A DNA stretch of 54,252 nt, taken from a virus (lineage: Duplodnaviria > Heunggongvirae > Uroviricota > Caudoviricetes). The stretch lies in the IMG/VR virus record IMGVR_UViG_3300035547_000249; one strand, given 5' to 3'. This document shows positions 866 through 17,257 of the stretch, in pieces (position 1 is the stretch's first letter; each line of letters starts with the position of its first letter). The position numbers and the translations under genes are program-made. The notes beneath the pieces were generated by a model. The model made no database searches and was not told the DNA's origin. It saw only the letters and a program-made list of their open reading frames with translations.

Positions 866-945
866 AAAAGAGCCGAAGTGGTTGGTTCATCAAACATAAG
901 CTATAAATTTATCAAAAACAAACCAATCACAAAACTAGCTCTTTT
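866..945 (+). ncRNA. novel CGAA/AWAACUA RNA motif, free-standing copy A
   Basis: aaaagagc/gctctttt stem, CGAA opposite AAAACTA, 10-bp gtggttggtt/aaccaatcac stem with GTTCATC; directly after tRNA-Leu. Confidence 0.7.
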
Positions 946-1355: not shown

Positions 1356-1537
1356 CCCAAATTAAATTTTGAGAGAGCCGAAAGCTATAGTTCATCGGAT
1401 AATAATAACATACTATGAAATGATATTTACTAGGTTCAAGTCCTAGAGACTCGCCCGCTTTCGTCTTCCGTCGGCGTGGCATTTTAAAAACTATGGCCCA
1501 AACTTGCTCTTTCATTAACACATGGAGGAATTAAACT

Positions 1538-3886: not shown

Positions 3887-3909
3887 CAAATTAAAATCAG
3901 GAGTTTTAC

Positions 3910-5544: not shown

Positions 5545-5571
5545 TTAAAATAAAATAGGAGATTATTAATT

Positions 5572-6279
5572 TTGAGTGATAAAAAAGTCAGTAAAACCCC
5601 ATGGGTTATGTGGTCTTTCGTTGTTGTAATTGTAATTTACATGGTTATTATGACTATGCAGTTTAAATCTGTTGATAATTTGAGTGATTTGAATGAACAC
5701 TATAAATACACAATGGAAAAATTAAAAACTGAAAATAAAAGACTCGGTGGGTATGAGGAAGAAGCTTTACAGTTAAGAAATGAAAACGATTCCTTATCAG
5801 AAAAGATGAAGTCATTAAAAGCAGTTAAAAGAAAAAATGAAGAACTGTCTGGTTTTATTATGTCTTTACAACCAAAACTGGACATTGAAGTTTCGAATAT
5901 TATCGCAGCAAAGATAATTGAACATGCAAATGCTTTTGGATTTCCTCCTTCTCTAATAGCTTCCTTGATGTATAGGGAGTCTTCATTTAACTTAATAGCT
6001 GTTAGTTCAGCTAAATGTGTTGGTTTGATGCAAGTTAATCCTGCAGCTCATACTGATAAAATAGAAGATATGGGGTTAGAATACCATAATTTATTTTCAA
6101 TTGATGAAAATATCAAACTTGGTTGCATGATACTCTATGAGTATTATAGTTCAGAAAAGGATATTAGAAAAGCATTGACAAGATATGTTGGTGGTTCGCA
6201 TGATAACTATGTTAATGATATTCTTTCCATGTATTCTAATTATCAGATAAACGAGTTCGGAAAAAACAAGGAACAATAA
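5572..6279 (+). CDS. membrane-anchored lytic transglycosylase (SLT domain)
   Basis: N-terminal TM helix, coiled coil, YRESSFN..AVSS..GLMQVN. Confidence 0.85.
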   Translation: MSDKKVSKTPWVMWSFVVVIVIYMVIMTMQFKSVDNLSDLNEHYKYTMEKLKTENKRLGGYEEEALQLRNENDSLSEKMKSLKAVKRKNEELSGFIMSLQPKLDIEVSNIIAAKIIEHANAFGFPPSLIASLMYRESSFNLIAVSSAKCVGLMQVNPAAHTDKIEDMGLEYHNLFSIDENIKLGCMILYEYYSSEKDIRKALTRYVGGSHDNYVNDILSMYSNYQINEFGKNKEQ

Positions 6280-6289
6280 GATAATCACA

Positions 6290-6377
6290 GGGGAATGTTC
6301 CAGGTAGGAGTCTGTAAAACTCTGGTCGCAAAATAATCTTGGTGGTTCGACGAGTGGTTCAATTCCATCATTCCCCA
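6290..6377 (+). tRNA. atypical tRNA-Tyr(GUA) with reduced D-arm
   Basis: ggggaat/attcccc, ggagt-CTGTAAA-actct; only ~10 nt in the D region, ~29-nt variable region. Confidence 0.6.
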
Positions 6378-6423
6378 CAGGAAAACAATGTAAATATATA
6401 TATATAATGAGAAAGATAATAAT

Positions 6424-6627
6424 ATGTATAAACCATATGAAGCAGTAATGGTTAACCCATTCTTCAGTAAAGTAACTTTTGAAGGAGATACCATTTTTAC
6501 ATATCTTTTAGATTACAGTGAAGCTAAATTACAAGCTAATCTTTTTAATAACATTTATGCTTTGGGGGTTATGAAAGCATGTAACTTGGCTGATAACAGA
6601 GAAGAGATACTAAAAATATTGAAATAA
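6424..6627 (+). CDS. hypothetical protein
   Basis: 67-aa ORF. Confidence 0.5.
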   Translation: MYKPYEAVMVNPFFSKVTFEGDTIFTYLLDYSEAKLQANLFNNIYALGVMKACNLADNREEILKILK

Positions 6628-6634
6628 AAAACAT

Positions 6635-6699
6635 AAAAGGACCGAAGATTGTAGTTTATCTATTTGGAGAAAACACTACAATTACTAACTTGTCCTTTT
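6635..6699 (+). ncRNA. novel RNA motif, free-standing copy C
   Basis: aaaaggac/gtcctttt, CGAA opposite ACTAACTT, gattgtagt/actacaatt, GTTTATC and AAAC. Confidence 0.7.
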
Positions 6700-6718
6700 A
6701 AATAATTTTTGAGGTAAT

Positions 6719-6970
6719 ATGAGACTTCCAGAAATAGTTAAGGAAATAAATGAAGTTGAAAAATTAAGGTTAAAGTTAAATAGCTTATTCGAAAAAGAAT
6801 CTAGTGTGTGTCCACATGTATCTTTTAGAGAAAGTTCGTTGTTTGAGTGGCAAACAGAAAAAGTTTGTAACAGAGAGGACAATCTATCTATAGGAACGCA
6901 TTATACGACGTTTTGTAAGCCAGAGTTTTGTCCTATGCAGGTAGAAAATTTGGTTGGTATGGGAAAATAA
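6719..6970 (+). CDS. hypothetical protein
   Basis: 83-aa ORF with GAGG RBS. Confidence 0.55.
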   Translation: MRLPEIVKEINEVEKLRLKLNSLFEKESSVCPHVSFRESSLFEWQTEKVCNREDNLSIGTHYTTFCKPEFCPMQVENLVGMGK

Positions 6971-6996
6971 ACACATACTACTTACAAAATTAATAC

Positions 6997-7025
6997 TTGA
7001 CAAACTATTTAACTAACCTTATTAT
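6997..7025 (+). promoter_or_regulatory. sigma70-like promoter
   Basis: TTGACA-17 bp-TATTAT; predicted +1 falls at the start of motif copy D. Confidence 0.7.
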
Positions 7026-7030
7026 TAATA

Positions 7031-7109
7031 CAGGACCGAAGATATTGGTTTATCATATAACAGTTTACAAAAACAGTCCAAGACAAGACCATTATCATAA
7101 CTAGTCCTG
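7031..7109 (+). ncRNA. novel RNA motif, free-standing copy D
   Basis: caggac/gtcctg, CGAA opposite ATAACTA, gatattggtt/gaccattatc, GTTTATC; 5' leader of tRNA-Gly. Confidence 0.72.
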
Positions 7110-7113
7110 ATAT

Positions 7114-7185
7114 GCGAGCATAACTCAATTGGTAGAGTGCTGGCCTTCCAAGCCAGTGACCTCGGTTCGATTCCGGGTGCTCGCT
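7114..7185 (+). tRNA. tRNA-Gly(UCC)
   Basis: ctggc-CTTCCAA-gccag, U73. Confidence 0.95.
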
Positions 7186-7216
7186 CAAGTAACCATTTAA
7201 TGTGAGGAATACCCAT

Positions 7217-7927
7217 ATGGGCAAAAGAATATATAAGCAAATGATTTGGTGGCCAGTAATGCCTATATGTGATAATCAACTTAAAGATGTTAGAAAAGAA
7301 GATTTACTTTTCGATGGTTTATATCGGTCATGTAATACTTATAGGGGTGGTGGGGGCTATGACGAATTTGGAAACATATATGAAAGACGTTTTGGAATTA
7401 CTCCAGAACCTGTACAGTTTGTAGTTCAGCTTAAAGGATGTCCGTTAAATTGTCCATACTGTTACGTTACGCCTGATGGTATTCATGGCAATTCAGTAAT
7501 GGTAAATACAAATAAACTATTAGATGATTATGAATCAACCGGGCTAAAAGTGTTTCATCTAATGGGCGGAGCACCAGCTATTTATTTAGAACACTGGAAA
7601 AATCTTACAAGAAATTTTAAGAAAGACCAAATATTTCATAGTGATTTTCTGCTGGTGGAAAACTTATATAAACCTTCTTGGTTGATAGACCTTCCAGGCC
7701 TGCATGCGGTATCTTTTAAGGAAAAATACCTTTATAATAAGGATCAACTTGGAATTATGTGGAAGAATTTAAGAACACTTATAGATTGTAAAGTAAACTT
7801 TTATATCACTTTTACAGGAAGAGATGAGTTTAGTCATAAAATATATGATGAGTTTGGTCCCAAAGTATTAGAAGATAGTTTTTTAATTAAGATTCAGAAA
7901 TATAAGGCCCTGTGGACTAATGGTTAG
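7217..7927 (+). CDS. radical SAM-like protein
   Basis: CPLNCPYC (CxxxCxxC) and a GG motif (LMGGAP). Confidence 0.65.
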   Translation: MGKRIYKQMIWWPVMPICDNQLKDVRKEDLLFDGLYRSCNTYRGGGGYDEFGNIYERRFGITPEPVQFVVQLKGCPLNCPYCYVTPDGIHGNSVMVNTNKLLDDYESTGLKVFHLMGGAPAIYLEHWKNLTRNFKKDQIFHSDFLLVENLYKPSWLIDLPGLHAVSFKEKYLYNKDQLGIMWKNLRTLIDCKVNFYITFTGRDEFSHKIYDEFGPKVLEDSFLIKIQKYKALWTNG

Positions 7928-7978
7928 GTCACAACCCTTTCAAGGTTGTAGTTGCCGGTTCAAGCCCGGCCAGGGTCA
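7906..7978 (+). tRNA. tRNA-Glu(UUC)
   Basis: caacc-CTTTCAA-ggttg; overlaps the last codons of the upstream ORF. Confidence 0.93.
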
Positions 7979-8075
7979 CATGGACTTAGTGTTGTATGAC
8001 ACGAGAGATATAATAAACTAACCTCCTTATAAGTGAGAGGGTATTATACCCTTAGAGTTTATTAGGAGGAAGTTT

Positions 8076-8504
8076 ATGAAAAGATCTACGAAGTGGAAGG
8101 GTGATTTGGCAGAACAGATAGTGGTGGTAGAGGCAATGAAAATGGGTATAGATGTTTCTATTCCTGTGGGAGATAGACTAACATATGATCTTATATTTGA
8201 TGTAAATAGTTCTTTGTTAAAGATACAGGTAAAATGTGCATGGTTTGATAAATGTAGTAATAATTATATAACAGACACTAGGATGTGTAAAACCAATAGA
8301 AAACATTATAGGTTTGAGAAATACTCCAATAATGATTTTGATTTCGCTATTATAGTGGTAATGGAAAACAACTCCTTCTACATTATGCCTTCCGATGTGT
8401 TCAATTTATACAAATCCAGTGTAACACTGTCTGAATTTGAAACCAGGCAAAGATCTCCTAGGTCATTGCCATATAAAAATGCTTGGCACTTGCTAGATGT
8501 ATAA
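8076..8504 (+). CDS. free-standing PD-(D/E)XK homing endonuclease (I-Ssp6803I-like)
   Basis: KGDLAE..VSIPVGD..YDLIFD..KIQVK. Confidence 0.8.
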   Translation: MKRSTKWKGDLAEQIVVVEAMKMGIDVSIPVGDRLTYDLIFDVNSSLLKIQVKCAWFDKCSNNYITDTRMCKTNRKHYRFEKYSNNDFDFAIIVVMENNSFYIMPSDVFNLYKSSVTLSEFETRQRSPRSLPYKNAWHLLDV

Positions 8505-8531
8505 CTAATATATAGTTGTAGAAAAAATTAA

Positions 8532-8602
8532 TGCAGCGTAGAGTATTGGTAACTCGGGGGTCTCATAAGCCTCACATATAGGTTCGAATCCTATCGCTGC
8601 AA
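8532..8602 (+). tRNA. tRNA-Met(CAU), initiator-like
   Basis: G-rich anticodon stem, loop CTCATAA, fMet-like D arm (TAGAGT..GGTAACTCG). Confidence 0.85.
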
Positions 8603-8612
8603 AGGTGATAAT

Positions 8613-8747
8613 ATGAAGAAAAATAAAAGAAATAAAACACCATTTGAAAGGTTTAGGAAACCAATTCCAAAACCAGGTTCTTTTTTCAAAGACAGAAGCA
8701 AGTATAATAGGAAAAAGAAACATAAAAAAGACAACGGAGAGGTGTAA
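8613..8747 (+). CDS. small basic protein (44 aa), possibly ArfA-like
   Basis: AGGTGA RBS; ends FKDRSKYNRKKKHK; family assignment is tentative. Confidence 0.45.
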   Translation: MKKNKRNKTPFERFRKPIPKPGSFFKDRSKYNRKKKHKKDNGEV

Positions 8748-8796
8748 CTCATTGGAAGAGAGGCCGGCAATGTGGGTTCGAATCCTACCACCTCTT
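8738..8796 (+). ncRNA. tRNA-like RNA lacking the anticodon arm
   Basis: agaggtg/cacctct, D arm actc-attggaa-gaga, T arm gtggg-TTCGAAT-cctac; only ggccggcaat between D and T arms. Confidence 0.75.
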
Positions 8797-8819
8797 CATT
8801 AAACAATAATACACGACCA

Positions 8820-8941
8820 GGGGTCGTAGCTCAGTTGGTAGAGCAGCCGACAAACAACCTTTTATGATACCTAGTCAAAAAGACCGAAGTACGAGGTTAA
8901 TCATAATCAGTATGTCGTAGGTTCGAATCCTACCGACCCCT
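8820..8941 (+). tRNA. tRNA(CAU) with a 49-nt insertion at 32/33 (motif copy E)
   Basis: removing 8852-8900 gives a canonical 73-nt cloverleaf with loop CTCATAA. Confidence 0.8.
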
Positions 8942-8961
8942 TCAAACAATAAAGGTGACAT

Positions 8962-9339
8962 ATGGACATTGAATTACAGAATAAACTCTTTGATAAATAC
9001 CCAAAACTCTTCAGACAAAGAACACTAAATCCAGAAGACACATGTATGTGTTTTGGAATAGAGTGTGGGGATGGTTGGTTTTGGTTATTATATGAGTTGT
9101 GTGACTTCATACAAACATATGTAGACAATAACAAAGAAGAACAACCAGAAGCTATTCAGGTTAAGGAGAAATTTGGTGGTCTAAGATTTTATACTACCCC
9201 TACAACCGGAAAAATTGATGGTGCCATATGGTTTGCTGAAAGCTTATCTATGAGTATATGTGAGGTGTGTGGCTCAAGGGAAGATGTGACACAGACAAAG
9301 GGATGGGTAAGGTCTTTGTGTAAAAAGTGTATTAAGTAA
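8962..9339 (+). CDS. conserved phage hypothetical protein
   Basis: ECGDGWF..QVKEKFGGLRFY..C-x2-C pattern. Confidence 0.75.
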   Translation: MDIELQNKLFDKYPKLFRQRTLNPEDTCMCFGIECGDGWFWLLYELCDFIQTYVDNNKEEQPEAIQVKEKFGGLRFYTTPTTGKIDGAIWFAESLSMSICEVCGSREDVTQTKGWVRSLCKKCIK

Positions 9340-9343
9340 TTAT

Positions 9344-9430
9344 TCTGGAGTACTCTAACTGGCAAGAGGCTTGGCTGTTAACCAAGTGTATTCCCGAGAG
9401 GGTATGCAGGTTCAAACCCTGCCTCCAGAG
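9344..9430 (+). tRNA. tRNA-Asn(GUU) with a long variable arm
   Basis: cttgg-CTGTTAA-ccaag followed by a 19-nt variable hairpin; G73. Confidence 0.85.
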
Positions 9431-9468
9431 CAAGGCTTTTTTTTATTAATTTATACAAAACAATAAAT

Positions 9469-9978
9469 TCAGGATAGGCTTAGTTTAAATTTTTTTACAT
9501 AATCATCTACTTGCTTTTTAATTAGATATCTATAGTTACTATGCCAATATCTATGATGGGTAGGACAAAGAGGCACAAAGTTATTTTTATTATTATTATT
9601 CTTATTACCATCATAATGATGTGCTTCTACTATTAAGGATTCAGAACAAATAATACATTTTTTCTCATGGTATGCAAAACAAACTTTTCGGGCTCCAAGC
9701 TCTGATATAGAAGAGTCCATTATAGAATAATTTTCTGCAGATTTCCAATTTGGATGATCTTTGCCAGTACGAAAATAAGTATTAGAGCAGCTATAGCTAC
9801 AAGTAGTATTAGATTTGTAGTTCTTAATAGGTTTTTCACAAATAGGACACAATATGATATTGTTAGGATTTAAATAACAATGATTCTCATGTTTAGATAA
9901 ACAAGAAGAACTGGTAATATGTCCACAAAATCGACAACTTTTTTTAACATAATTACCAGTTATAATAAATTTTCCCAT
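9469..9978 (-). CDS. HNH endonuclease
   Basis: CIIC..EAHHYDGN..NFVPLCPTHH. Confidence 0.85.
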   Translation of the reverse strand: MGKFIITGNYVKKSCRFCGHITSSSCLSKHENHCYLNPNNIILCPICEKPIKNYKSNTTCSYSCSNTYFRTGKDHPNWKSAENYSIMDSSISELGARKVCFAYHEKKCIICSESLIVEAHHYDGNKNNNNKNNFVPLCPTHHRYWHSNYRYLIKKQVDDYVKKFKLSLS

Positions 9979-10028
9979 AATTAACTACCTTCCTACTAAT
10001 AACGAGGTTAGTTAATTTGAAAAAATTA

Positions 10029-10104
10029 CTAGCGGTGGCCAAGTCTGGTAAGGCGCCGGTTTTGGATACCGGAGACTTCAGAGGTTCGAATCCTCTCCGC
10101 TAGA
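10029..10104 (+). tRNA. tRNA-Pro(UGG)
   Basis: ccggt-TTTGGAT-accgg. Confidence 0.93.
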
Positions 10105-10127
10105 CAAGTATTAAAAGGAACAATAAA

Positions 10128-11063
10128 ATGGATTTTAAAAAAACTATCATTGACTACCTCGATTCTATAAAAAACGATTTTAATGAGTTAAGAATAGAAA
10201 ACAGGAAAGATAATATTTCCAAAACTCTTGAAAGATTAAAAGATTATAAAGAAAAAATTATCTCAGGAGAGTGGACTATAGATGACTTCTTGGAAGCATT
10301 TTTCGGGCATCTTAAAGTAGAGTCAATTTTAACACTTAATTCTGTATCTTTGTTCGATGAGCCAGCTATTTGGGCTATTAGAAGAAAGGTTAGACATGGT
10401 AATTATGATCGTTGGTCTGACATATACCGTGTATTGAAGGATAAATGTTCTAAGACAGAAGCTATCAAACTTGCTGAGAAAATGGAAGATATATACACTA
10501 GAGAATTTACTGAGGTACCAAGTATTAAAGTCCCCAGCGGAAAATTATTGTTTAGTAATTATTTTCTTAATAATGAAGAAGGCGATAATAAAACCTATGC
10601 ATTTAATGTTCCTGAAGATTTAAAATATGATGACTGGTTCTCACTAAATAGTAAATTTGGTAGACAGAACATGATGACATATCTTGCTAAAGAGTACAAT
10701 ATTGGTTACTGTCAATTAGGAAATAGAACAGTGGGAGTATATAAAGTAGATAATGACCGAATTTATTTAGCCCCCACATCTTATTACGACGATGTAACTG
10801 ATAGAGATATTGAACCTACCAAAAAGTGGGAATATTTAGGAGACATTGATTGCTCCGTTTGGCGAGTAGAATTTATTGATGAAATACTTTTTGATAGTAA
10901 TAATAACATTGATAAGGATTTTTTCGAAGAAGAGGATAATGTAATTGTAGAGGTTACTCCAGGTACTTGGACTGCACATAACTATTATCACTGTAAATCA
11001 GATAAGAGTTTGGTAGAAAAGTTTGGGTATCCTGTATGGATTGAGATAAATAGAATTAAATAA
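10128..11063 (+). CDS. hypothetical protein
   Basis: 311-aa ORF, no recognised motif. Confidence 0.75.
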   Translation: MDFKKTIIDYLDSIKNDFNELRIENRKDNISKTLERLKDYKEKIISGEWTIDDFLEAFFGHLKVESILTLNSVSLFDEPAIWAIRRKVRHGNYDRWSDIYRVLKDKCSKTEAIKLAEKMEDIYTREFTEVPSIKVPSGKLLFSNYFLNNEEGDNKTYAFNVPEDLKYDDWFSLNSKFGRQNMMTYLAKEYNIGYCQLGNRTVGVYKVDNDRIYLAPTSYYDDVTDRDIEPTKKWEYLGDIDCSVWRVEFIDEILFDSNNNIDKDFFEEEDNVIVEVTPGTWTAHNYYHCKSDKSLVEKFGYPVWIEINRIK

Positions 11064-11214
11064 CAGGTACTCATTCAGTACCAAAAGCAGTATGAAACTG
11101 GGCATTTCATATTGACATTTTGTTGCGTTAGTGGGCAACAAAACTCCTTTTGTTAGGTGATTGGTTAGTGTTCTGTTCATGACAAAAAGTGGGCAGAACA
11201 CAAAAGAGAATAAA

Positions 11215-11336
11215 GGGCTCGGTGTCCGTGGGGACTAAACAACTTTCGGTAATAACTAGTTGTGTTTACACAGCCGAGTATTGGAAGTTTATCAAATGCA
11301 AATTGAAAAACTTAGGTTCGACTCCTACCGAGTCCA
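11215..11336 (+). tRNA. tRNA-Cys(GCA)-like gene with a 55-nt insertion (motif copy F)
   Basis: removing 11237-11291 completes the ttcaa/ttgaa stem around ATGCAAA; acceptor gggctcg/cgagtcc; short D-loop; A73 is atypical for Cys. Confidence 0.65.
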
Positions 11337-11351
11337 CAAGAAGGAATTATT

Positions 11352-11639
11352 ATGGATGAAAAATTAAGAACAAAAGTAACTTTCATAAAGGACAAATACC
11401 ACATCAGGTTGCTAGAAGATGATTTGTTAGTAAATGAAATGGCATGCAGGGAAAAGATAGATATAGGGTGGTGTTGTTCTTATATGTTAAGATGGTATGA
11501 TAAACTTGGCGGAAACTCTGTTATGGCTATCAGGTCAAGAGACAGGTGGAGTAATAAGACCTCTAATCCGATGGGAAAGATATGGTATGAAAAAGATCTT
11601 AGACCAAAAGGGTGTATTCAAACTGGATCTACACGGTAA
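11352..11639 (+). CDS. hypothetical protein
   Basis: 95-aa ORF. Confidence 0.6.
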   Translation: MDEKLRTKVTFIKDKYHIRLLEDDLLVNEMACREKIDIGWCCSYMLRWYDKLGGNSVMAIRSRDRWSNKTSNPMGKIWYEKDLRPKGCIQTGSTR

Positions 11640-11829
11640 GAGTCATGCTAATGCGAGAAATAATACAATAAGATTTATCGAAGAGCACTGGGATGATGAC
11701 TCTGAACTGGAGATAATAACTGGACACAGCACCATTATGAAAGGAATAGTTCTAAATGTTCTAGATGAATACAGTCTTCCGTATCAAATAAGTTATATGA
11801 ATACAGGAAAAATAATTGCATGGACATGA
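11587..11829 (+). CDS. stand-alone Smr-domain protein
   Basis: KLDLHG..LEIITGHS; start set at MKKILDQ. Confidence 0.8.
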   Translation: MKKILDQKGVFKLDLHGKSHANARNNTIRFIEEHWDDDSELEIITGHSTIMKGIVLNVLDEYSLPYQISYMNTGKIIAWT

Positions 11830-12035
11830 ATATAATAAAAGTGCCTATTCTGAAAAGATTTGTACATAATGGTAGAAGGTTTGGAGAAACAGATGATGGT
11901 AAGGCTAAATGGTATAGAAGATTTGAAGCTGAAACCTTTAGCCCTGCTCCAGACGGAATCAATGATTGGACATGTGTTAGTGTCTTAGAAGTTATAAAAC
12001 ATTTCATAAAAGGAACCAGAATAAGGTGGACTTAA
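11820..12035 (+). CDS. hypothetical protein
   Basis: 71-aa ORF. Confidence 0.5.
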   Translation: MDMNIIKVPILKRFVHNGRRFGETDDGKAKWYRRFEAETFSPAPDGINDWTCVSVLEVIKHFIKGTRIRWT

Positions 12036-12039
12036 GACA

Positions 12040-12375
12040 ATGAAATATACAATAGAAATAACAGAAAAACAAAAGGAAGTAATTGTAAGGGCTCTGGAGA
12101 CTTATGTAAGATTAATGATAGGTCAAATAGATATAGTTGTAGGTGACAACTTTAAGGAATTATCGTGGGACAATAAAAAAATTATACATGAGACAGCAAG
12201 AAAATTTATCTTTAAAGAATACCCATCTAACGGCGGCCCCGGAATAGGACACCCTGATACAGATGTAAAAGCAAAGATTGCTTATGAGATGGGCGATATT
12301 CTAAAGGGTAAGTTGCCGTTGGAACTATCTGGAGAACCTTTTCCTGTTGTAAATATTACCTCTTTAAAAGCATAA
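12040..12375 (+). CDS. hypothetical protein
   Basis: 111-aa ORF. Confidence 0.65.
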   Translation: MKYTIEITEKQKEVIVRALETYVRLMIGQIDIVVGDNFKELSWDNKKIIHETARKFIFKEYPSNGGPGIGHPDTDVKAKIAYEMGDILKGKLPLELSGEPFPVVNITSLKA

Positions 12376-12382
12376 GAAATAT

Positions 12383-12467
12383 GGAAGGGTCGTCAGTATG
12401 GTGCGACAACGAGTCTTGAAAACTCGGGGGTGTAAAAGCTTTGCAGGTTCGAATCCTGTCCCTTCCG
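12383..12467 (+). tRNA. tRNA-Ser(UGA)
   Basis: loop CTTGAAA, long variable arm, G73. Confidence 0.92.
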
Positions 12468-12500
12468 CAAGTTAATAATTTTAAATAAAGAGGTGTAAAC

Positions 12501-12833
12501 ATGAAAAAGAAAACAATTTGGCAAGAAAGCAAGGCATATCCAAGTCTATATCATCAGATAGTAAAAAGATTTGGACCTTTTAAGTCGTGGCCCAACAGAA
12601 GTTACCCAGCCAACAAAGGCGAGTTTGAGAAATTCTGTAGAAGTTTCGCAGACGTTGTTGGGGCTAAATCTGGCAGAGCAGTTGAAAATCAGATACGATG
12701 GGCTACCACCAAGCAATCAAAAATAGGTAACTCACATATGATGACTTATCTATCCAATAAAATGGCAGCTTTGGCTGCTGGATTTATAGATAGTAAGTAT
12801 GTACCTACTGATATGAAGTGCAATTACAAATAA
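12501..12833 (+). CDS. hypothetical protein
   Basis: 110-aa ORF with GAGGTG RBS. Confidence 0.65.
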   Translation: MKKKTIWQESKAYPSLYHQIVKRFGPFKSWPNRSYPANKGEFEKFCRSFADVVGAKSGRAVENQIRWATTKQSKIGNSHMMTYLSNKMAALAAGFIDSKYVPTDMKCNYK

Positions 12834-12849
12834 CACTAATAAATTGTTA

Positions 12850-13152
12850 TGAATGGTGGGAGGTTGGCTTAGAGGCAGCCAGACGAAAGTCTGCTGGAAA
12901 TTGATATCCAGTACCTATAATGAGTGGAACGACCTACCTACCGCCGGTTGTTTTGCCTAACTGACTTGGCATCGGTCTTAAGGTTAGGGTACCAGTTAAG
13001 TTCGAAGCAAGCCACCTTCGCAGGTGGATGTTATAGACACGGGGTAGCTCCCCTAAATACTGCTGAGGTAGGAGATGCTTATGATAGTGTGATGGCACCC
13101 CAGAAATGGTAAGGCCGGATCTTCCTTTGGCGTAGCAGCACACCACCATTCA
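12850..13152 (+). ncRNA. ~300-nt structured RNA with 23S rRNA H43/H44-like ends
   Basis: closing stem tgaatggtg/caccattca; GGAGGTTGGCTTAGAGGCAGCCA and GCGTAGCAGCACAC; many internal hairpins; GC-rich in AT-rich DNA. Confidence 0.8.
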
Positions 13153-13246
13153 AACAATAACCTATTAATATAGGAGGAGATATGAAGATTTTTTCATATG
13201 TAATGGATATCTTCTAAGTTTTTTAAATAAACTTAGGAGGTATTAA

Positions 13247-13609
13247 ATGAAATACAAAGACAAAGTTCAAAAAAAACATAAGGCAAATCGTCTTGTTGAG
13301 GAAATAGACCCTTGGGGTTATAGGTTATCATACAAGTGGGTACCAGATGGATATCGTTATTATGGTCCAGTATTCAGATTTAGATATGATCCTGTACCTG
13401 GAACTGGTGGTTCTGGTAAAGTACATATAAGAGGGTGCTACAGGACTATTAGAACTACTCAAGAAAGAAGATGGTCACTTGCTCATAAAGATTATGTTAG
13501 GGGCAAGAGAAGTTACAGAATGCTTCCAGATGCTTGGGACGATATTCATCATGCAAGGAGAGAAAAAGGTTGGAAAAGGACAAAGAAAAAGAAACAATGG
13601 ATGAGGTGA
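13247..13609 (+). CDS. conserved basic hypothetical protein
   Basis: RTTQERR..RGKRS..LPDAWDD..KGWK pattern; AGGAGG RBS. Confidence 0.7.
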   Translation: MKYKDKVQKKHKANRLVEEIDPWGYRLSYKWVPDGYRYYGPVFRFRYDPVPGTGGSGKVHIRGCYRTIRTTQERRWSLAHKDYVRGKRSYRMLPDAWDDIHHARREKGWKRTKKKKQWMR

Positions 13610-13694
13610 TATATGACTGACTGGTTTACTTCTGATTGACATTTTTAACTAACCTCCTAATAAATGTAAGTATCAAATTTATTAGGAGAAAAAC

Positions 13695-14411
13695 ATGAAA
13701 ACAAAATATAATTGTACTAATTGTAAAAAAGAATTCAAAAGATATGTCTCTACAGTAAGAAATCCAGAAGCAGTGTTTTGTAGTAGGAAGTGTAAGAGTG
13801 ATTGGCAAGTAGGTAAATTGAGTGGAAAGAATAACCCAAACTATCGTCACGGTAAGTGGGTTGAAGGAAAAAAATCCATATGTGAATGTGGCAATGAAAA
13901 AGACCCTAGATCCTCTAAATGTTATAATTGTAATAGATGCTCTTTTAAAAAGGGGTCTATTAATATAGTTGCTGGCACCAAATCCGTAGTTACAGATGAG
14001 GTAATAAAAAAGATAGTCACCGAAAGTAAATCATTTTTAGAAGTTAGTGATAAACTTAATATATCTAGATATTGGGCAGTTAAAAGAACGAAGCAATTAA
14101 ATTTAGATATTTCACACTTCGTAAAATGTGTTAATAGACCTTATTTACCAGAAGAAGTTTTCAAAGAAGAAAGTAAGGTAAGCAATAGTATTGTCAAGAA
14201 ATTACTTCTAGATGAAAAAGAAGAAAAATGTGAATGTTGTGGTCTAGACAATGTCTGGTTGGAAAAACCACTAACAATAGAACTTCATCATAAGAATGGA
14301 ATTAACAATGATCATAGAAAAGAAAATTTAATCTTACTATGCCCTAACTGCCATTCACAAACTGATACACATAGAGGAAGAAATACTATAACAAAAAGGA
14401 GTCAATTATAA
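13695..14411 (+). CDS. HNH endonuclease
   Basis: CECC..ELHHKNG..NLILLCPNCHSQT. Confidence 0.88.
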   Translation: MKTKYNCTNCKKEFKRYVSTVRNPEAVFCSRKCKSDWQVGKLSGKNNPNYRHGKWVEGKKSICECGNEKDPRSSKCYNCNRCSFKKGSINIVAGTKSVVTDEVIKKIVTESKSFLEVSDKLNISRYWAVKRTKQLNLDISHFVKCVNRPYLPEEVFKEESKVSNSIVKKLLLDEKEEKCECCGLDNVWLEKPLTIELHHKNGINNDHRKENLILLCPNCHSQTDTHRGRNTITKRSQL

Positions 14412-14920
14412 TGGATTGGTTCAGTGCAGATCACCACTTCTTCCACCCGGCCATCATAGGTTATGCTGGAAGGCCGTTTAGAACTGAACAGGAAATGAGA
14501 AATATTATAGTCAAAAGGCACAATGAAGTAGTAGGACCAAAAGATACAACATACTTCATAGGTGATGTTGCAATGATAGGAAGACACGAACTTTCCAAAC
14601 TCAGACCCTTGCTTGAGAAAATGAATGGTACAAAACACCTTATTCTTGGAAATCATGATGAAGGCAGACCATTCACCTATGAGAGGTTTGGATTTACTAC
14701 AGTCCACACCGCTCTACAGTACAATGAAAATATTATTCTAAGGCATGACCCTGCTGCATGTATTGTCATGCCTGAAAAGTTGTGGTTAGTGGGGCACGTT
14801 CATAATGTGTTCCATTATACCACCGAACCAATAAAATGTTTTAACGTCGGTGTTGACGTTAATGATTTCTATCCTGTCAATTTAGAACAGATAGAAAAAA
14901 TTATGAATATTAAGATTTAA
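14411..14920 (+). CDS. calcineurin-like metallophosphoesterase
   Basis: ADHHFFH, GDV, GNHD, GHVH motifs. Confidence 0.88.
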   Translation: MDWFSADHHFFHPAIIGYAGRPFRTEQEMRNIIVKRHNEVVGPKDTTYFIGDVAMIGRHELSKLRPLLEKMNGTKHLILGNHDEGRPFTYERFGFTTVHTALQYNENIILRHDPAACIVMPEKLWLVGHVHNVFHYTTEPIKCFNVGVDVNDFYPVNLEQIEKIMNIKI

Positions 14921-14931
14921 GGAGAGTTGTA

Positions 14932-15243
14932 ATGATTTATGTAAAAGTTGACGGTAAGGAACATGGTATCACTTTTCTTCATGAGAAGGAAGAGACAGAG
15001 GTAGTAAACAAGAACGGTAAAAAGATTAATATGAGCGTACCTTTTAGAACCACATGCGCCATCATTGATCCAGAAAGCAAAGCAACAATTGCTACTGGTG
15101 TTGCAAAGGTTGATTCCAGAGACAATTTCACCTACAACAAAGGTAGAAAGTTTTCTCTTAAGAATGCCCTACTTGCAGCAAATATGCACAGGCACCAAAG
15201 AACTCAGCTCTGGAATCAGTTTTTTGAAAAGGTTAAATATTAA
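14932..15243 (+). CDS. hypothetical protein
   Basis: 103-aa ORF with AGGAG RBS. Confidence 0.65.
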   Translation: MIYVKVDGKEHGITFLHEKEETEVVNKNGKKINMSVPFRTTCAIIDPESKATIATGVAKVDSRDNFTYNKGRKFSLKNALLAANMHRHQRTQLWNQFFEKVKY

Positions 15244-15252
15244 CAAATAACA

Positions 15253-15341
15253 GGAAGGTTGGCCGAGAGGCTTAAGGCACTCGCCTGCTAAGCGAGTGGG
15301 GTCGTTAAACACCCCCGAGAGTTCGAATCCCTCACCTTCCG
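15253..15341 (+). tRNA. tRNA-Ser(GCU)
   Basis: ctcgc-CTGCTAA-gcgag, long variable arm. Confidence 0.95.
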
Positions 15342-15347
15342 CAAGAT

Positions 15348-15420
15348 GGGGTTGTAGCTTAATTGGGAGAGCATCTGCTTTGCAAGCAGAAGGGTATGGG
15401 TTCAATTCCCTTCAACTCCA
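15348..15420 (+). tRNA. tRNA-Ala(UGC)
   Basis: loop TTTGCAA, G3.U70. Confidence 0.93.
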
Positions 15421-15446
15421 CAAGTACATACTGGAGGAAAATCTGA

Positions 15447-15980
15447 ATGGAAAACACTATTTTATTGAACAGCGATTATAATTTCATCAGTATTATAAAC
15501 TGGAAAAGAGCAATTCTTTTGGTTATAAAAGAAAAAGTAGAAGTATTAAAAGGTAGTGATACTGTAATAAAAAATAGTGATGGTTCTATTAAAATTCAAG
15601 TACCAAGAATAGTCAGATTGGTTAGAATGGTTAAGACAATTTATAAATCTAGTGTACCATTCAACAAAAAAAGTGTTATATACAGAGATAAAGGTATTTG
15701 TCAATACTGTGGTACTTCAATAGAAAAAGACATAACCATAGACCATGTTCTGCCAAAATCAAAAGGTGGAATATCTAGCTTTACTAATTGTGTAGTATGC
15801 TGTAAACCATGCAACAACAAAAAAGGCGATAAACTATTAAAAGATAGCGGCATGAAATTGTTAAAAGAACCAAGAACTCCAACAGTAATAGAGTTTATGC
15901 TAATTAAACTTAATAAAGCAAAGAGAGATGAGAGTAAATGGTTCGAAGATTTAGAAAAATACTTTAATCAAGAAGGATAA
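15447..15980 (+). CDS. HNH endonuclease (McrA-like)
   Basis: LLNSDY..WKRAI; CQYC..TIDHVLPKSKGG..NCVVCCKPCNNKK. Confidence 0.88.
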   Translation: MENTILLNSDYNFISIINWKRAILLVIKEKVEVLKGSDTVIKNSDGSIKIQVPRIVRLVRMVKTIYKSSVPFNKKSVIYRDKGICQYCGTSIEKDITIDHVLPKSKGGISSFTNCVVCCKPCNNKKGDKLLKDSGMKLLKEPRTPTVIEFMLIKLNKAKRDESKWFEDLEKYFNQEG

Positions 15981-15985
15981 ATATC

Positions 15986-16246
15986 ATGGAAAAAACTGAA
16001 GCTGTATGCGATATACATGATGTTTTGGATACCTATAATAATATAGTAGAAACATGTGACAAACTTCCAGAATGTTTGATAGTAAATAGTAAAGATGAGA
16101 CAGTATTGTCTAGTGTATTAGGTGATCAGTACATCAAAAGCTCTGCTAACGATATGTATTCAAATAATATACTTGGTTACTTTAGAGATATTCAGGTCAA
16201 ATCTGGTATATTGTCTAGTTGTAAAGCCAAGTTTATGTTAAATTAG
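15986..16246 (+). CDS. hypothetical protein
   Basis: 86-aa ORF. Confidence 0.55.
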   Translation: MEKTEAVCDIHDVLDTYNNIVETCDKLPECLIVNSKDETVLSSVLGDQYIKSSANDMYSNNILGYFRDIQVKSGILSSCKAKFMLN

Positions 16247-16407
16247 TATGTTTAAGATTTCTGATAAGATAAAAGATAAGTTTGCAAATACAGTTATAAC
16301 ATCTTTTTCTTTTACGGCAGCAGCCACTTTATTGGTAAAAATAGGATGTAATCCAAATCTATTATCTGCTGTTTGTATATCAGGATTAACTTTAATAATT
16401 ATTATAT

Positions 16408-16482
16408 GGTGGCGGTAACTCAGTGGTAGAGAGCTGGATTGTGGCTCCAGCAGCACGGGTTCGAATCCCGTCCGCCACCCCA
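16408..16482 (+). tRNA. tRNA-His(GUG)
   Basis: G-1, C73, loop TTGTGGC, encoded CCA. Confidence 0.95.
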
Positions 16483-16691
16483 AGGATCTATCATGAACTC
16501 TGGCCATTTAATTAAATTAAGACCATGTGTATGAGTAGGGATAGCCAAACCAGATTTCATGATGATGTAGATAGTAGTGTATTCATTGGTTCGGAGGACC
16601 GAAATCATTAGATATTCCTCCGTGTGAGGCTGTTAAACACAGAATAAAACGATCAAAAAAATTTCATTATATGGGTATACTACTATCTCAT

Positions 16692-16762
16692 AGGGATGTT
16701 AGCTAACGGAAAGCTCCCAGCCTTTGACGCTGGTCATCCAGGTTCGAGTCCTGGCATCCCTG
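16692..16762 (+). tRNA. tRNA-Gln(UUG)
   Basis: ccagc-CTTTGAC-gctgg, G73. Confidence 0.92.
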
Positions 16763-16786
16763 CAAGAAAAATATAAGGAGGTGAAT

Positions 16787-17257
16787 ATGTCAAACAGTAT
16801 GAGATTGCTGGAAAAGGCGATAGTAATAGCAACTAATGCTCATATGGGCCAGTTTGATAGGGCTGGCGCACCATATATTCTTCACCCTCTCAGAGTTATG
16901 ATGAGGATGTCTACTATAGAAAGTAAGATAGTAGCAGTATGTCATGACCTAATTGAAGATACATATATAACACTAAAAGACCTCATGAATGAAGAATTTA
17001 CAGATGACATAATATTCTCTATTGATTGTATGACTAAGTGCAAAGGTGAGGAATACAACTCCTACCTTGATCGTGTTATAAGTGACAAGATGGCATCGGA
17101 ATGTAAGCTTGAAGATATGAGAGACAACTCAAATATATACAGGCTTAATAAAATAAAAGATAAGCACCTAAAAATGATAGAAAAATATCATAAAGGAGCA
17201 TTAAGAATACTTGAAGCTTGGCCTGAGTTTAATATTAGGTTTAGGCTTATAGACTGA
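16787..17257 (+). CDS. HD-domain hydrolase, RelA/SpoT (small alarmone hydrolase) type
   Basis: AI..A..AH.GQ.DRAGAPYILHPLRV, HDLIED, KLEDM.DN. Confidence 0.8.
   Translation: MSNSMRLLEKAIVIATNAHMGQFDRAGAPYILHPLRVMMRMSTIESKIVAVCHDLIEDTYITLKDLMNEEFTDDIIFSIDCMTKCKGEEYNSYLDRVISDKMASECKLEDMRDNSNIYRLNKIKDKHLKMIEKYHKGALRILEAWPEFNIRFRLID

What the first reader, a model, noticed from the sequence alone, without database searches (positions are those of the whole stretch)
11215..11336. Second insert with equivalent junctions completes a tRNA-Cys(GCA) anticodon stem
Seen: the insert 11237-11291 also starts AAACAAC, ends GTTWA and is followed by TCA, exactly as at 8852-8900. Removing it gives a perfect 5-bp ttcaa/ttgaa stem around AUGCAAA. 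The site (27/28) differs from the first, so the boundaries follow the motif rather than the tRNA. No other Cys tRNA is present in the window. Caveats: the D-loop is very short, position 26 is missing and A73 is atypical.
Basis: partly seen in the sequence, partly recalled or inferred. Interest (0 to 1): 0.82.

Follow-up and report, generated by a model that had tools for sequence, protein, structure and literature searches.

The report
Y-RNA handle grafted into phage tRNA-Cys
The 55-base insert in this giant phage's cysteine-tRNA gene is real, but it is a looped-back copy of the protein-docking stem of Y RNAs (the partners of the Ro60 ring protein), so the gene more likely makes a tRNA-shaped Y RNA than a tRNA waiting to be spliced.

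Summary
Deleting 11237-11291 leaves a 68-nt tRNA-Cys(GCA) cloverleaf. The insert is homologous to the 49-nt insert in tRNA(CAU) at 8852-8900 and has the same junctions (N|AAAC ... WA|UC).

The insert is not an orphan. It is one of six copies, all on the + strand in the tRNA island, of a covarying stem-bulge-stem motif. Four copies (866-945, 1371-1513, 6635-6699, 7031-7109) are free-standing small RNAs. The two copies inside tRNAs are the same motif circularly permuted and capped.

The motif (lower stem, bulged C, GAR, 10-11-bp upper stem, UHAUC, opposite NNNAC-UW-G) matches the Ro60-binding stem of Y RNAs and the published bacterial and phage CGAA signature. It fits no intron type, no Rfam ribozyme and no transposon end.

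Related phages carry a different Ro60-type handle inside their tRNAs, close to a gene that I show folds like Ro60.

My best reading (about 0.5) is a tRNA-bodied Y RNA, an un-permuted analogue of YrlA. A true excisable intron remains possible (about 0.27). No RNA data were available, and no Ro60 gene lies in the 79 kb held, about 29% of the genome.

Other agents in this scan reached the same reading on other genomes. I found no published description.

The parts
11215..11236 (+). tRNA-Cys body, 5' part: acceptor 5' strand (11215-11221), GT, D arm GTCC-GTGG-GGAC (11224-11235), U27 (11236)
   Evidence: Read from the sequence. ARAGORN cloverleaf of the spliced form.
11237..11240 (+). AAAC linker, the 5' strand of loop 2; the putative 5' junction lies just before it
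   Evidence: Identical in the Met insert at 8852-8855. A-rich in the free-standing copies.
11241..11251 (+). Upper stem (stem B), 5' strand; pairs with 11279-11289 (11 bp, including 3 G-U pairs)
   Evidence: Fold. Pair table across the six copies: 57 of 61 paired, and 7 of 10 columns carry 2 to 6 different base combinations.
11252..11258 (+). Asymmetric internal-loop strand ATAACTA; its last two bases (UA) face the GA of CGAG, the counterpart of NNNAC-UU in Y RNAs
   Evidence: Conserved as AWAMCUW in all six copies. The 3' strands of Y1, Y3 and Y4 were confirmed to exist in the literature.
11259..11274 (+). Lower stem (stem A), GTTGTG/CACAGC, capped by TTTA. In the four free-standing copies this stem is formed by the flanks of the element instead
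   Evidence: stem A: 40 of 40 positions paired across the copies.
11275..11278 (+). CGAG: bulged C plus GA(R), the Ro60-contact signature (CGAA in the other five copies; CCGAG as in human/dog Y3)
   Evidence: Chen 2014 PMC4201824 (GNCGAAN0-1G, GGUCCGA). PMC12135203 (CGAA in a stem-bulge-stem). Y3 5' sequence.
11279..11293 (+). Upper stem 3' strand (11279-11289) and the conserved tail TATC; the putative 3' junction lies between A11291 and T11292
   Evidence: GTTHATC is conserved in all six copies. Compare GUUAUC in Y1 and Y4.
11292..11337 (+). tRNA-Cys body, 3' part: intact anticodon hairpin TCAA-ATGCAAA-TTGA(A) (11292-11307), variable AAAC, T arm TTAGG-TTCGACT-CCTAC (11312-11328), acceptor 3' strand (11329-11335), A73, C
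8820..8943 (+). Sister chimera: tRNA(CAU) with the same handle (8852-8900) between positions 32 and 33. The handle extends from the anticodon stem through a 5-nt / 8-nt internal loop
   Evidence: tRNA, 51.8 bits; ARAGORN intron call.
866..945 (+). Free-standing copy c1 (Y-RNA-like, 80 nt) that exactly fills the spacer between tRNA-Leu and tRNA-Trp
1371..1513 (+). Free-standing copy c6. Its distal part holds a T-arm look-alike and a closed acceptor-like hairpin, so it is YrlA-like in part
   Evidence: Architecture of YrlA from 10.1101/312249.
6635..6699 (+). Free-standing copy c2 (65 nt) between two small ORFs
7031..7109 (+). Free-standing copy c3 (79 nt), ending 4 nt before tRNA-Gly

Best explanation
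The insert is a capped, circularly permuted copy of a Y-RNA-type handle, the stem-bulge-stem that Ro60/Rsr ring proteins bind. The gene therefore encodes a tRNA-Cys-bodied Y RNA.

Shown: the phage carries six copies of one covarying RNA module, made of a lower stem, a bulged C, GA(R), a 10-11-bp upper stem and UHAUC, opposite an NNNAC-UW-G strand. Four copies close small stand-alone RNAs. Two are hairpins inside complete tRNA bodies: at 26/27 in Cys, next to an intact anticodon arm, and at 32/33 in Met, as a continuation of the anticodon stem.

Inferred: the RNA is transcribed with the tRNA cluster and its ends are matured like those of a tRNA (RNase P, then the phage CCA-adding enzyme). The handle stays in the RNA and docks a Ro60-type protein, encoded either in the unsampled 70% of the genome or by the host. 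The tRNA body then plays the part that the tRNA-like domain plays in bacterial YrlA: it tethers the ring, and whatever exonuclease or ligase travels with it, to factors that recognise tRNA. This would serve RNA repair, quality control or counter-defence.

In topology it is YrlA turned inside out: free acceptor ends and a closed handle, instead of a closed acceptor and an open handle.
For: 1. Six strict copies, all on the + strand and all in the tRNA island, against 0.01 expected per shuffle.
2. Structure under selection as RNA. Stem B is paired at 57 of 61 positions with 9 G-U pairs, and 7 of its 10 columns carry 2 to 6 different base combinations. Stem A is paired at 40 of 40 positions. The G-U pairs would be C-A mismatches on the other strand.
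3. Match to Y RNAs. The 5' strand GG(A)C-CGAAG-N8-UUAUC compares with mouse Y1 GGUC-CGAAG-GUAGUGAG-UUAUC (PMC4597359). CCGAG-U matches Y3. The full RNY4 sequence shows ...UAAAU-UU-GAC on the 3' strand, against AUAAC-UA-GUC and CAAAC-UU-GCU here (PMC5648034).
4. Published criteria for bacterial and phage Y RNAs are a GNCGAAN0-1G motif resembling the GGUCCGA that Ro60 contacts (PMC4201824) and a CGAA motif in a stem-bulge-stem. Hairpin forms are included, and they bind phage phiLo Ro60 at nanomolar affinity (PMC12135203).
5. YrlA is a circularly permuted tRNA whose anticodon-stem side leads, through loops of about 5 nt, to the Rsr-binding module (10.1101/312249). The Met chimera has exactly this geometry.
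6. Copy c6 carries a T-arm and a closed acceptor-like hairpin.
7. Relatives (41-49% identity in the neighbouring 311-aa protein) have tRNAs with about 45-nt inserts made of a hairpin plus AACAGCAA. In the two relatives where the gene is visible (L036, L037), these lie less than 1 kb downstream of a DUF2828/DUF7788 gene. My model of that protein (pLDDT 89) matches only Ro60 structures in its top 13 hits. Phage CBB has the same gene and three such long tRNAs. In one of them, by my reading of the sequence (the predicted minimum-energy fold does not form that anticodon arm), the handle arm sits between the D arm and an intact CUUUUAA anticodon arm, as in the Cys gene here.
8. In the three orthologous chimeras of the relatives, the would-be anticodon differs (AUA, AUC, AUA), so they are not pre-tRNAs.
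Against: No TROVE, DUF2828 or Ro60-like gene lies in the 79-kb record. The record is only about 29% complete.

The Rfam YrlA model does not hit any copy. Its best match, 22 bits at 8751-8869, is the known dimeric-tRNA artefact.

No other phage with this exact handle was found in IMG/VR, so all conservation evidence comes from paralogues in one genome.

Both chimeras keep flawless anticodon loops (CUCAUAA, AUGCAAA) and equivalent junctions, which is what an intron would predict. The Cys gene would fill a gap in a nearly complete tRNA set.

The handle of CcrColossus, a phage with a classical TROVE gene, is a different sequence, so CGAA is not universal.

There are no binding or expression data.
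Confidence: 0.5

Rival explanations
1. True excisable intron. The pre-tRNA is cut on both strands of loop 2 (N|AAAC and WA|UC) by a protein endonuclease that uses the handle as a ruler, possibly with Ro60 bound. The halves, held together by the tRNA body, are rejoined by an RtcB- or Rnl-type ligase. This yields decoding tRNA-Cys and tRNA-Met/Ile2.
For: Identical junction positions relative to the motif in two tRNAs at different tRNA sites.

Exact 7-nt anticodon loops after removal.

No other tRNA-Cys among the 21 tRNAs of the record.

The upper stem has a constant 10-11 bp, as a ruler would need.

Relatives carry RtcB (L039) and an Rnl2-like RNA ligase (L036) inside their tRNA islands.

In human cells the loop just after the Y-RNA upper stem is a preferred target of an RNase that leaves ends RtcB can join (PMC5648034).

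Bacterial rsr and Y RNA genes share an operon with rtcB. This is established knowledge; PMC7790460 was only listed and not read.
Against: No bulge-helix-bulge is present: both cuts would flank the same end of one helix. No EndA, RtcB, Rnl1 or Rnl2 is found in the 79 kb.

Restoration on deletion is automatic for any insertion that makes no target duplication. Only one stem pair of the Cys tRNA depends on the junction.

The same module works outside tRNAs four times, which would leave nothing to splice there.

The analogous chimeras in three relatives lack a conserved anticodon.

The spliced Cys product is a sub-threshold tRNA without position 26.

The Met anticodon stem has a C-A mismatch.
Confidence: 0.27
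2. Selfish or accidental insertion. A copy of the phage's own Y-RNA-like element landed in two dispensable tRNA genes by recombination or retro-insertion and inactivated them. The chimeras have no function of their own.
For: Phage tRNA genes are often dispensable. The island is full of mobile elements: three group I introns, HNH and PD-(D/E)XK homing endonucleases, and TnpB.

The record has three CAU tRNAs plus tRNA-Ile(UAU), so one CAU gene is spare.

The Cys body is weak as a tRNA.
Against: Both insertions are in tRNAs, in the tRNA's orientation and in the anticodon arm. tRNAs cover only about a tenth of the island.

The two inserts have diverged to 76% identity, yet both keep both stems and every signature base, and the tRNA bodies keep complete acceptor, D and T arms.

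There are no target-site duplications, no terminal inverted repeats at the very ends, and no likeness to the flanks of the TnpB gene.

The same design (a handle inside a tRNA) is conserved across diverged relatives and in cultured Rak2-like phages.
Confidence: 0.12
3. Small self-cleaving or self-splicing ribozyme. The circular permutation between the free and the tRNA-embedded copies reflects a catalytic fold that does not depend on connectivity, as in hammerhead, twister or hairpin ribozymes.
For: Circular permutation of one motif and conserved unpaired nucleotides in two loops.
Against: No Rfam ribozyme family matches, even at E up to 10 on the short stretches.

The two conserved loops are separated by a continuous, covarying 10-11-bp helix, so they cannot dock on each other in cis.

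A single self-cleaving site could not remove an insert. The conserved bases are fully accounted for by the Ro60-site signature.
Confidence: 0.04

Closest known systems
YrlA and YrlB, the bacterial and phage Y RNAs bound by Rsr/Ro60 (Chen et al. 2014, PMC4201824; Wang et al. 2018, bioRxiv 10.1101/312249; Rfam RF02553)
   Same: A Ro60-type stem with a CGAA-containing bulge, joined to a tRNA-shaped module on its anticodon-stem side through short unpaired linkers. They are encoded among or beside tRNA genes. M. smegmatis YrlA is even cut by RNase P and receives CCA.
   Different: YrlA is a circularly permuted tRNA: the acceptor is closed by a loop and the RNA ends sit in the handle. Here the tRNA has normal connectivity, free acceptor ends and, in Cys, a complete anticodon arm, while the handle is a capped hairpin. 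The Rfam model does not score the copies, and no Ro60 gene is adjacent in the DNA held.
Vertebrate Y RNAs (Y1, Y3, Y4), Ro60-binding lower stem
   Same: Nearly the same layout and several identical bases: GGNC, bulged C, GA(A/G), a 9-10-bp upper stem, then (G)UUAUC. The opposite strand ends ...AC-UU-G before the lower stem.
   Different: They are eukaryotic Pol III transcripts whose other end is a loose pyrimidine-rich loop, not a tRNA. Homology as opposed to convergence on the same protein surface is not established.
Thermus phage phiLo Ro60 with Yrl1 and Yrl2 (PMC12135203)
   Same: Phage-encoded Y-RNA-like molecules recognised by a CGAA motif in a stem-bulge-stem, including hairpin forms. 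Binding to a phage Ro60 and to host PNPase was shown in vitro.
   Different: Those RNAs sit next to the Ro60 gene and are not embedded in tRNAs.
tRNAs carrying the hairpin-plus-UACAGCAA handle near DUF2828 Ro60-like genes
   Same: A Ro60-family handle of about 45-55 nt is grafted into the anticodon arm, or at the D/anticodon junction, of an otherwise complete tRNA in jumbo-phage tRNA islands.
   Different: The handle sequence and presumably the ring protein differ (DUF2828 type rather than the classical CGAA type). I found no publication on it. GenBank annotates the CBB genes simply as long tRNAs.
Archaeal non-canonical tRNA introns (bulge-helix-bulge, EndA plus RtcB) and permuted or split tRNA genes
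   Same: Short inserts at positions other than 37/38, including the 26-32 region. The inner and outer parts of the processing motif are interchangeable, which would also explain permuted forms.
   Different: No two 3-nt bulges separated by 4 bp, no EndA homologue, and a bacterial-virus context.
Group I introns in bacterial and phage tRNA genes (three in this window, 1955-3815)
   Same: They interrupt the anticodon loops of tRNAs in the same island and restore the tRNA on removal.
   Different: They are 194-696 nt ribozymes with P1-P9, a U at the 5' splice site and a terminal G. The 49-55-nt inserts have none of these features.

Membership tests
Y RNA / YrlA-type Ro60 partner RNA | Stem-bulge-stem carrying the Ro60-contact signature (GGUCCGA in animals; GNCGAAN0-1G or CGAA in bacteria and phages) | tested here: met
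   All six copies have RRC-CGAR between two covarying stems. Two fit GNCGAAN0-1G exactly, five have CCGAA, and the Cys copy has CCGAG as in Y3 (literature).
Y RNA / YrlA-type Ro60 partner RNA | Second module that binds an effector, tRNA-like in YrlA, joined on the anticodon-stem side | tested here: met
   In Met the handle continues the anticodon stem through a 5-nt / 8-nt loop. In Cys it leaves the D/anticodon junction. Copy c6 carries a T-arm plus a closed acceptor-like hairpin.
Y RNA / YrlA-type Ro60 partner RNA | Scores above the gathering threshold of Rfam RF02553 (YrlA) or RF00019 (Y_RNA) | tested here: not met
   No Y RNA family hit on any copy at E up to 1-10. The best YrlA hit is 22 bits, against a gathering score of 69, at 8751-8869, across two adjacent tRNA-like genes.
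Y RNA / YrlA-type Ro60 partner RNA | Encoded beside, or in the same genome as, a Ro60/Rsr (TROVE-vWA) gene | tested here: inconclusive
   No TROVE, DUF2828 or Ro60-like match in the 79-kb record, but the record is about 29% complete. Relatives do encode a Ro60-fold protein in the tRNA island.
Y RNA / YrlA-type Ro60 partner RNA | Physical binding to Ro60/Rsr | not testable with these tools
   Needs EMSA or co-immunoprecipitation.
Archaeal/eukaryal protein-spliced tRNA intron | Bulge-helix-bulge (or relaxed HBh') at the exon-intron junctions, and a splicing endonuclease | tested here: not met
   Both junctions lie at the same end of stem B: 4 nt before it on the 5' strand and 2 nt after it on the 3' strand. 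No 4-bp central helix is present. PF01974 gives only a 13-bit sub-threshold match, with an internal stop codon, in a short 28-aa frame.
Group I intron | Catalytic core P3-P8, U-G pair at the 5' splice site, terminal G | tested here: not met
   49-55 nt. RF00028 hits only the three large introns at 1979-3768. The inserts end in A, and the Met 5' exon ends in C.
Small self-cleaving ribozymes (hammerhead, hairpin, twister, twister-sister, pistol, hatchet, HDV-like) | Match to the family's covariance model | tested here: not met
   No hit at permissive E-values.
MITE / IS200-IS605 PATE-type DNA element | Target-site duplication or conserved target tetranucleotide, terminal repeats, likeness to the ends of a resident transposon | tested here: not met
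   The flanks are CGAC| and GACT| with no duplication. The pairing uses many G-U pairs, so it is strand-specific. There is no similarity to the flanks of the TnpB gene at 27238-28335.
Functional tRNA-Cys (after removal of the insert) | Canonical cloverleaf detected by tRNA finders; CysRS identity elements (U73, GCA) | tested here: inconclusive
   ARAGORN calls tRNA-Cys(GCA) only at 90% of its default threshold. GCA is present, but position 73 is A, position 26 is missing and the D loop has 4 nt.

The most novel reading that the evidence does not exclude
The handle is a genuine intron of a new kind. A Ro60-type stem-bulge-stem directs cleavage on both strands of the loop beyond its 10-11-bp upper stem, and an RtcB- or Rnl-type ligase rejoins the tRNA halves. 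Phages would then hold tRNA-Cys and tRNA-Met as inactive pro-tRNAs that the Ro60/RNA-repair machinery activates. This would be a third route of tRNA splicing, the first protein-dependent one in the bacterial world, and it would give the enigmatic bacterial rsr-Y RNA-rtcB operon a natural type of substrate.
Probability: 0.2. Interest if true: 0.9.

Novelty: new variant of a known kind. Interest (0 to 1): 0.62.

Why it matters
Y RNAs and Ro60 are conserved from bacteria to humans, where Ro60 is a major lupus and Sjogren autoantigen. What their tRNA-like partner domains do is still unknown.

This phage shows the same near-animal-type Ro60 handle in two topologies in one genome: as the closing stem of small RNAs, and as a capped arm inside complete tRNAs. 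That makes the logic of YrlA explicit: a handle plus a tRNA body.

It also offers simple test objects. One is a real tRNA body with free, CCA-extendable ends. The other is an intact Cys anticodon arm beside the handle.

The finding also warns annotators. The over-long tRNAs of jumbo phages, for example three in the cultured phage CBB, are probably not intron-containing tRNAs.

If the handle is in fact excised, this would be a new splicing pathway tied to RtcB.

Tried and rejected
- Exact-pattern scans of IMG/VR. The intron-form 5' half gave 21 stretches and the CCGAAG...GTTTATC strand gave 89 stretches. None lay in a tRNA context or carried the full motif, so these are chance matches.
- GenBank phages have no DNA similarity to 8000-12500 or 10100-12400.
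- Contigs carrying the identical neighbouring protein are 100% identical to the window, so no insert-free allele is available.
- Relatives found through the radical-SAM, SLT and 311-aa proteins lack this handle under both strict and relaxed descriptors.
- Bulge-helix-bulge, group I, ribozyme and IS605/MITE readings are rejected for the reasons given under the membership tests.
- I tested whether the distal part of copy c6 is a functional permuted tRNA. ARAGORN at low stringency and circular folding give nothing convincing. It is only tRNA-like in part.
- The 311-aa neighbour is unlikely to be the processing enzyme: no Pfam or PHROG family, and no informative Atlas neighbour.
- The PD-(D/E)XK gene at 8076-8504 was considered as a splicing endonuclease. 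The family (PF11645) is better explained as a homing endonuclease of the tRNA group I introns. This is from knowledge of I-Ssp6803I and was not tested.
- CcrColossus served as a positive control for the descriptor. Its TROVE gene is preceded by permuted-tRNA Y RNAs, but they carry a different handle, so it gives no direct support.
- One literature search (DUF2828/TROVE) was uninformative.
Full report
**Context.** The window is the minus strand of a 79-kb IMG/VR record, estimated at 29% of a jumbo-phage genome. Positions 780-16800 form a tRNA island on the + strand. It holds 17 plain tRNAs, three tRNAs with group I introns (Leu-UAA, Met-CAU and Arg-UCU), many homing-endonuclease genes, PTH2, an Smr-like protein and phosphoesterases.

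**The observation.** The sequence is as described. 11237-11291 begins AAACAAC, ends AGTTTA and is followed by TCA. Its removal joins U11236 to UCAA, which gives the stem UUCAA/UUGAA around AUGCAAA. The rest is a small but complete tRNA body:
- a 7-bp acceptor stem with one G-U pair;
- a 4-bp D stem with a GUGG loop;
- a T arm with UUCGACU;
- A73.

The insert in tRNA(CAU) at 8852-8900 has the same ends. It aligns with the Cys insert at 76% column identity. The boundaries cannot be shifted without losing U33 (Met) or the U27-A43 pair (Cys).

Three cautions apply:
- Four of the five anticodon-stem pairs of the Cys tRNA lie inside the 3' part.
- Any insertion without a target duplication restores the gene when deleted.
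- The spliced Cys sequence is called by ARAGORN only at a lowered threshold, and the Rfam tRNA model does not see the unspliced gene (the spliced form could not be tested with that tool). The Met gene scores 51.8 bits.

**The insert belongs to a six-member family.** I wrote a descriptor that requires CGAR, an 8-12-nt stem strand and HATC on one strand. On the other strand it requires a complementary stem strand, a 6-9-nt loop ending MCTW and a second stem.

It finds six copies. There are none elsewhere in the record. Shuffles give 0.01 hits of this quality per window.

In the four free-standing copies the order is: lower stem, CGAA, upper stem, UHAUC, variable distal part, A-rich linker, upper stem, AWAMCUW, lower stem. 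In the two tRNA copies the same parts are circularly permuted. The lower stem is capped by a 4-5-nt loop, and the place of the distal part is taken by the tRNA.

The upper stem is always 10-11 bp. It is paired at 57 of 61 positions, and seven of its ten columns carry two to six different base combinations. The lower stem is paired at 40 of 40 positions. Eleven of the pairs in the two stems together are G-U, so the structure exists in RNA of the + strand, not in DNA.

**What the motif is not.**
- No Rfam family, ribozyme or otherwise, matches any copy, even at E up to 10 on short stretches.
- There is no bulge-helix-bulge, because both junctions flank the same end of the upper stem.
- The only match to the splicing-endonuclease family is a 13-bit sub-threshold hit, with an internal stop codon, in a short 28-aa frame.
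- The inserts lack every group I feature.
- They have no target duplications and no likeness to the flanks of the window's TnpB gene.
- Because a continuous covarying helix separates the two conserved loops, they cannot dock on each other in cis. This argues against a small ribozyme.

**What it is like.** The strand GG(A)C-C-GAAG-N8-UUAUC recalled the 5' end of Y RNAs, so I checked my recollection against papers.
- Mouse Y1 reads GGCUGGUCCGAAGGUAGUGAGUUAUCUCAAUU (PMC4597359, Table 2).
- Y3 begins GGCUGGUCCGAGUGCAGUGG.
- The full RNY4 sequence is printed in PMC5648034.
- The 3' strands I remembered also exist in print.

In Y RNAs the lower stem ends GGUC. A C is bulged. GA pairs with UU. A one-base versus four-to-five-base asymmetric loop follows, then a 9-bp upper stem, then (G)UUAUC. 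The 3' strand reads NNNAC-UU-GAC.

The phage copies read (G)GAC or (G)AGC on the lower stem (Met GAC, Cys CAGC), then a bulged C, then GA facing UA or UU. A 1 x 5 loop follows (AUAAC, CAAAC, CUAAC, AAAAC or AUACC), then a 10-11-bp upper stem, then UHAUC. The Cys copy even has CCGAG-U, as in Y3.

The published criteria for bacterial and phage Y RNAs are these:
- a GNCGAAN0-1G motif that resembles the GGUCCGA contacted by Xenopus Ro60 (Chen et al. 2014, PMC4201824);
- a CGAA motif within a stem-bulge-stem. In Thermus phage phiLo such elements, including hairpin forms, bind the phage Ro60 with nanomolar affinity and bridge it to host PNPase (PMC12135203).

**Why the tRNA context fits.** YrlA, the widespread bacterial and phage Y RNA, is a circularly permuted tRNA. 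The T arm, a closed acceptor-like stem-loop and the D arm are followed by an anticodon-like stem. That stem leads through roughly 5-nt linkers to the Rsr-binding module (10.1101/312249; PMC4201824). M. smegmatis YrlA is cut by RNase P and receives CCA.

The Met chimera here has the same geometry with the connectivity reversed: anticodon stem, a 5-nt / 8-nt internal loop, then the handle, which is capped, with free acceptor ends. The Cys chimera attaches the handle at the D/anticodon junction and keeps a complete anticodon arm. The minimum-energy fold of 11215-11337 is a cloverleaf with a fifth arm (z = -3.5).

Copy c6 (1371-1513) carries a T-arm look-alike and a closed G+C-rich hairpin in its distal part. 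It is therefore partly YrlA-like in the usual topology.

**Evidence from relatives.** The 311-aa protein upstream of the Cys gene has homologues at 41-49% identity on three other large-phage contigs. Their tRNA islands contain tRNAs about 120 nt long whose anticodon region holds a different conserved module: a hairpin with a CUGUAAAG-type loop followed by AACAGCAA.

Earlier notes of this scan describe that module as the handle of small RNAs next to DUF2828 genes (e1-440189 and e1-1678674). In L036 and L037 the handle-bearing tRNA lies less than 1 kb downstream of a DUF2828/DUF7788 gene.

I modelled that protein from 29 homologues (pLDDT 89, pTM 0.89). Its 13 best PDB matches are all Ro60 proteins: phage phiLo, Xenopus, Deinococcus and human, with E about 1e-7 and TM 0.5-0.6.

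The cultured Pectobacterium phage CBB has the same gene. It also has three annotated tRNAs of 114, 122 and 119 nt with the same handle. In the 122-nt one, by my reading of the sequence, the handle arm sits between the D arm and an intact CUUUUAA anticodon arm. That is the design of the Cys gene here. The predicted minimum-energy fold does not form that anticodon arm.

In the three orthologous chimeras of the relatives, the bases left at the anticodon position are AUA, AUC and AUA. They are therefore not precursors of one decoding tRNA, yet the chimeric design is conserved.

Relatives also carry RtcB (L039) and an Rnl2-like ligase (L036) in the island.

**Weighing the readings.** I put the identification of the insert as a Ro60-type handle at about 0.8. 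Whether it stays in the RNA is less certain.

For retention:
- The module has a life of its own in four non-tRNA copies.
- The architecture reproduces YrlA.
- The analogous chimeras elsewhere cannot be pre-tRNAs.
- There is no splicing signal or enzyme.

For excision:
- The anticodon loops are flawless (CUCAUAA and AUGCAAA).
- The junctions are equivalent in the two tRNAs.
- There is no other tRNA-Cys.
- The upper stem has a ruler-like constant length.
- RNA ligases sit in the relatives' islands.
- In human cells the loop just beyond the Y-RNA upper stem is the preferred site of an RNase that leaves ends RtcB can join (PMC5648034).

My odds are 0.5 for a retained handle (a tRNA-shaped Y RNA), 0.27 for a true intron, 0.12 for a functionless insertion and 0.04 for a ribozyme.

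**Weak points.**
- No Ro60-family gene is present in the 79 kb held.
- The Rfam YrlA model does not score the copies.
- This exact handle was not found in any other public phage contig.
- No expression data could be consulted.

**Relation to earlier work.** After I had reached the Y-RNA reading (note), a word search showed that other agents of this scan had come to the same conclusion for handle-bearing tRNAs in other genomes (e1-1599581, e1-5308151, e1-5419823 and others). Those notes are not independent evidence.

My literature searches found no paper describing such tRNA-embedded handles.

What this window adds is the classical, animal-like CGAA handle present in both topologies within one genome.

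Noticed in passing
Its 91-nt distal part holds a T-arm look-alike (CTAGG-TTCAAGT-CCTAG) followed by a closed G+C-rich hairpin. It looks like a partly YrlA-like Y RNA in the usual permuted topology, but no D arm is evident.
   Followed up: partly
window 8738-8796: A 59-nt tRNA look-alike with acceptor, D and T arms but only about 10 nt where the anticodon and variable arms should be (Rfam tRNA, 34 bits). It lies 23 nt upstream of the handle-bearing tRNA(CAU). The weak Rfam YrlA hit at 8751-8869 spans both.
   Followed up: partly
window 9344-9431: tRNA with anticodon GUU (Asn) but an 88-nt, class II-like body with a long variable arm. This is unusual for tRNA-Asn.
   Followed up: no
window 1955-3815: Three tRNAs in a row (Leu-UAA, Met-CAU, Arg-UCU) carry group I introns of about 325, 696 and 194 nt (Rfam RF00028, 50-51 bits). 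A free-standing PD-(D/E)XK (PF11645) gene at 8076-8504 and several HNH genes lie in the same island.
   Followed up: no
window 27238-28335 (-): TnpB/Cas12f-like gene (OrfB_IS605 plus TNB domain) inside the phage genome. Its flanks show no likeness to the handle.
   Followed up: partly
L035 (Pectobacterium phage CBB, KU574722) 3725-3838, 5426-5547, 10663-10781: Three GenBank-annotated tRNAs of 114-122 nt (labelled OTHER, Phe-GAA and Ser-AGA) each contain a hairpin plus YNAC(A/G)GCA handle. The 122-nt one appears to have a CUUUUAA (Lys-type) anticodon arm, so the database anticodon labels look wrong. CBB also encodes a DUF2828 protein at about 102.8-104.3 kb.
   Followed up: partly
L036 607-2022; L037 1980-3392: The DUF2828/DUF7788 proteins (about 470 aa) in the tRNA islands of related phages fold like Ro60 (TROVE ring plus vWA). 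The family has more than 7,700 members in the protein collection, and nearly all are unnamed.
   Followed up: yes
L037 12303-12518; L039 9646-9845: Orthologous 200-216-nt tRNA-shaped RNAs in two relatives. They have a covarying acceptor stem, a D arm, a CACCG-AAAACGGA-CGGTG hairpin in the anticodon position, and a structured domain of about 120 nt before the T arm. ARAGORN mislabels them as intron-containing tRNA-Cys and tRNA-Ile.
   Followed up: partly
L056 (Caulobacter phage CcrColossus, JX100810) 6458-7838, minus strand: The 1.4 kb upstream of the TROVE gene holds an array of at least five or six permuted tRNA-like units. All are closed by one handle (GGGTGGCGTAG ... TGTTCCCCC) that differs from the CGAA type. 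Only one unit is annotated, as tRNA-Gln.
   Followed up: no
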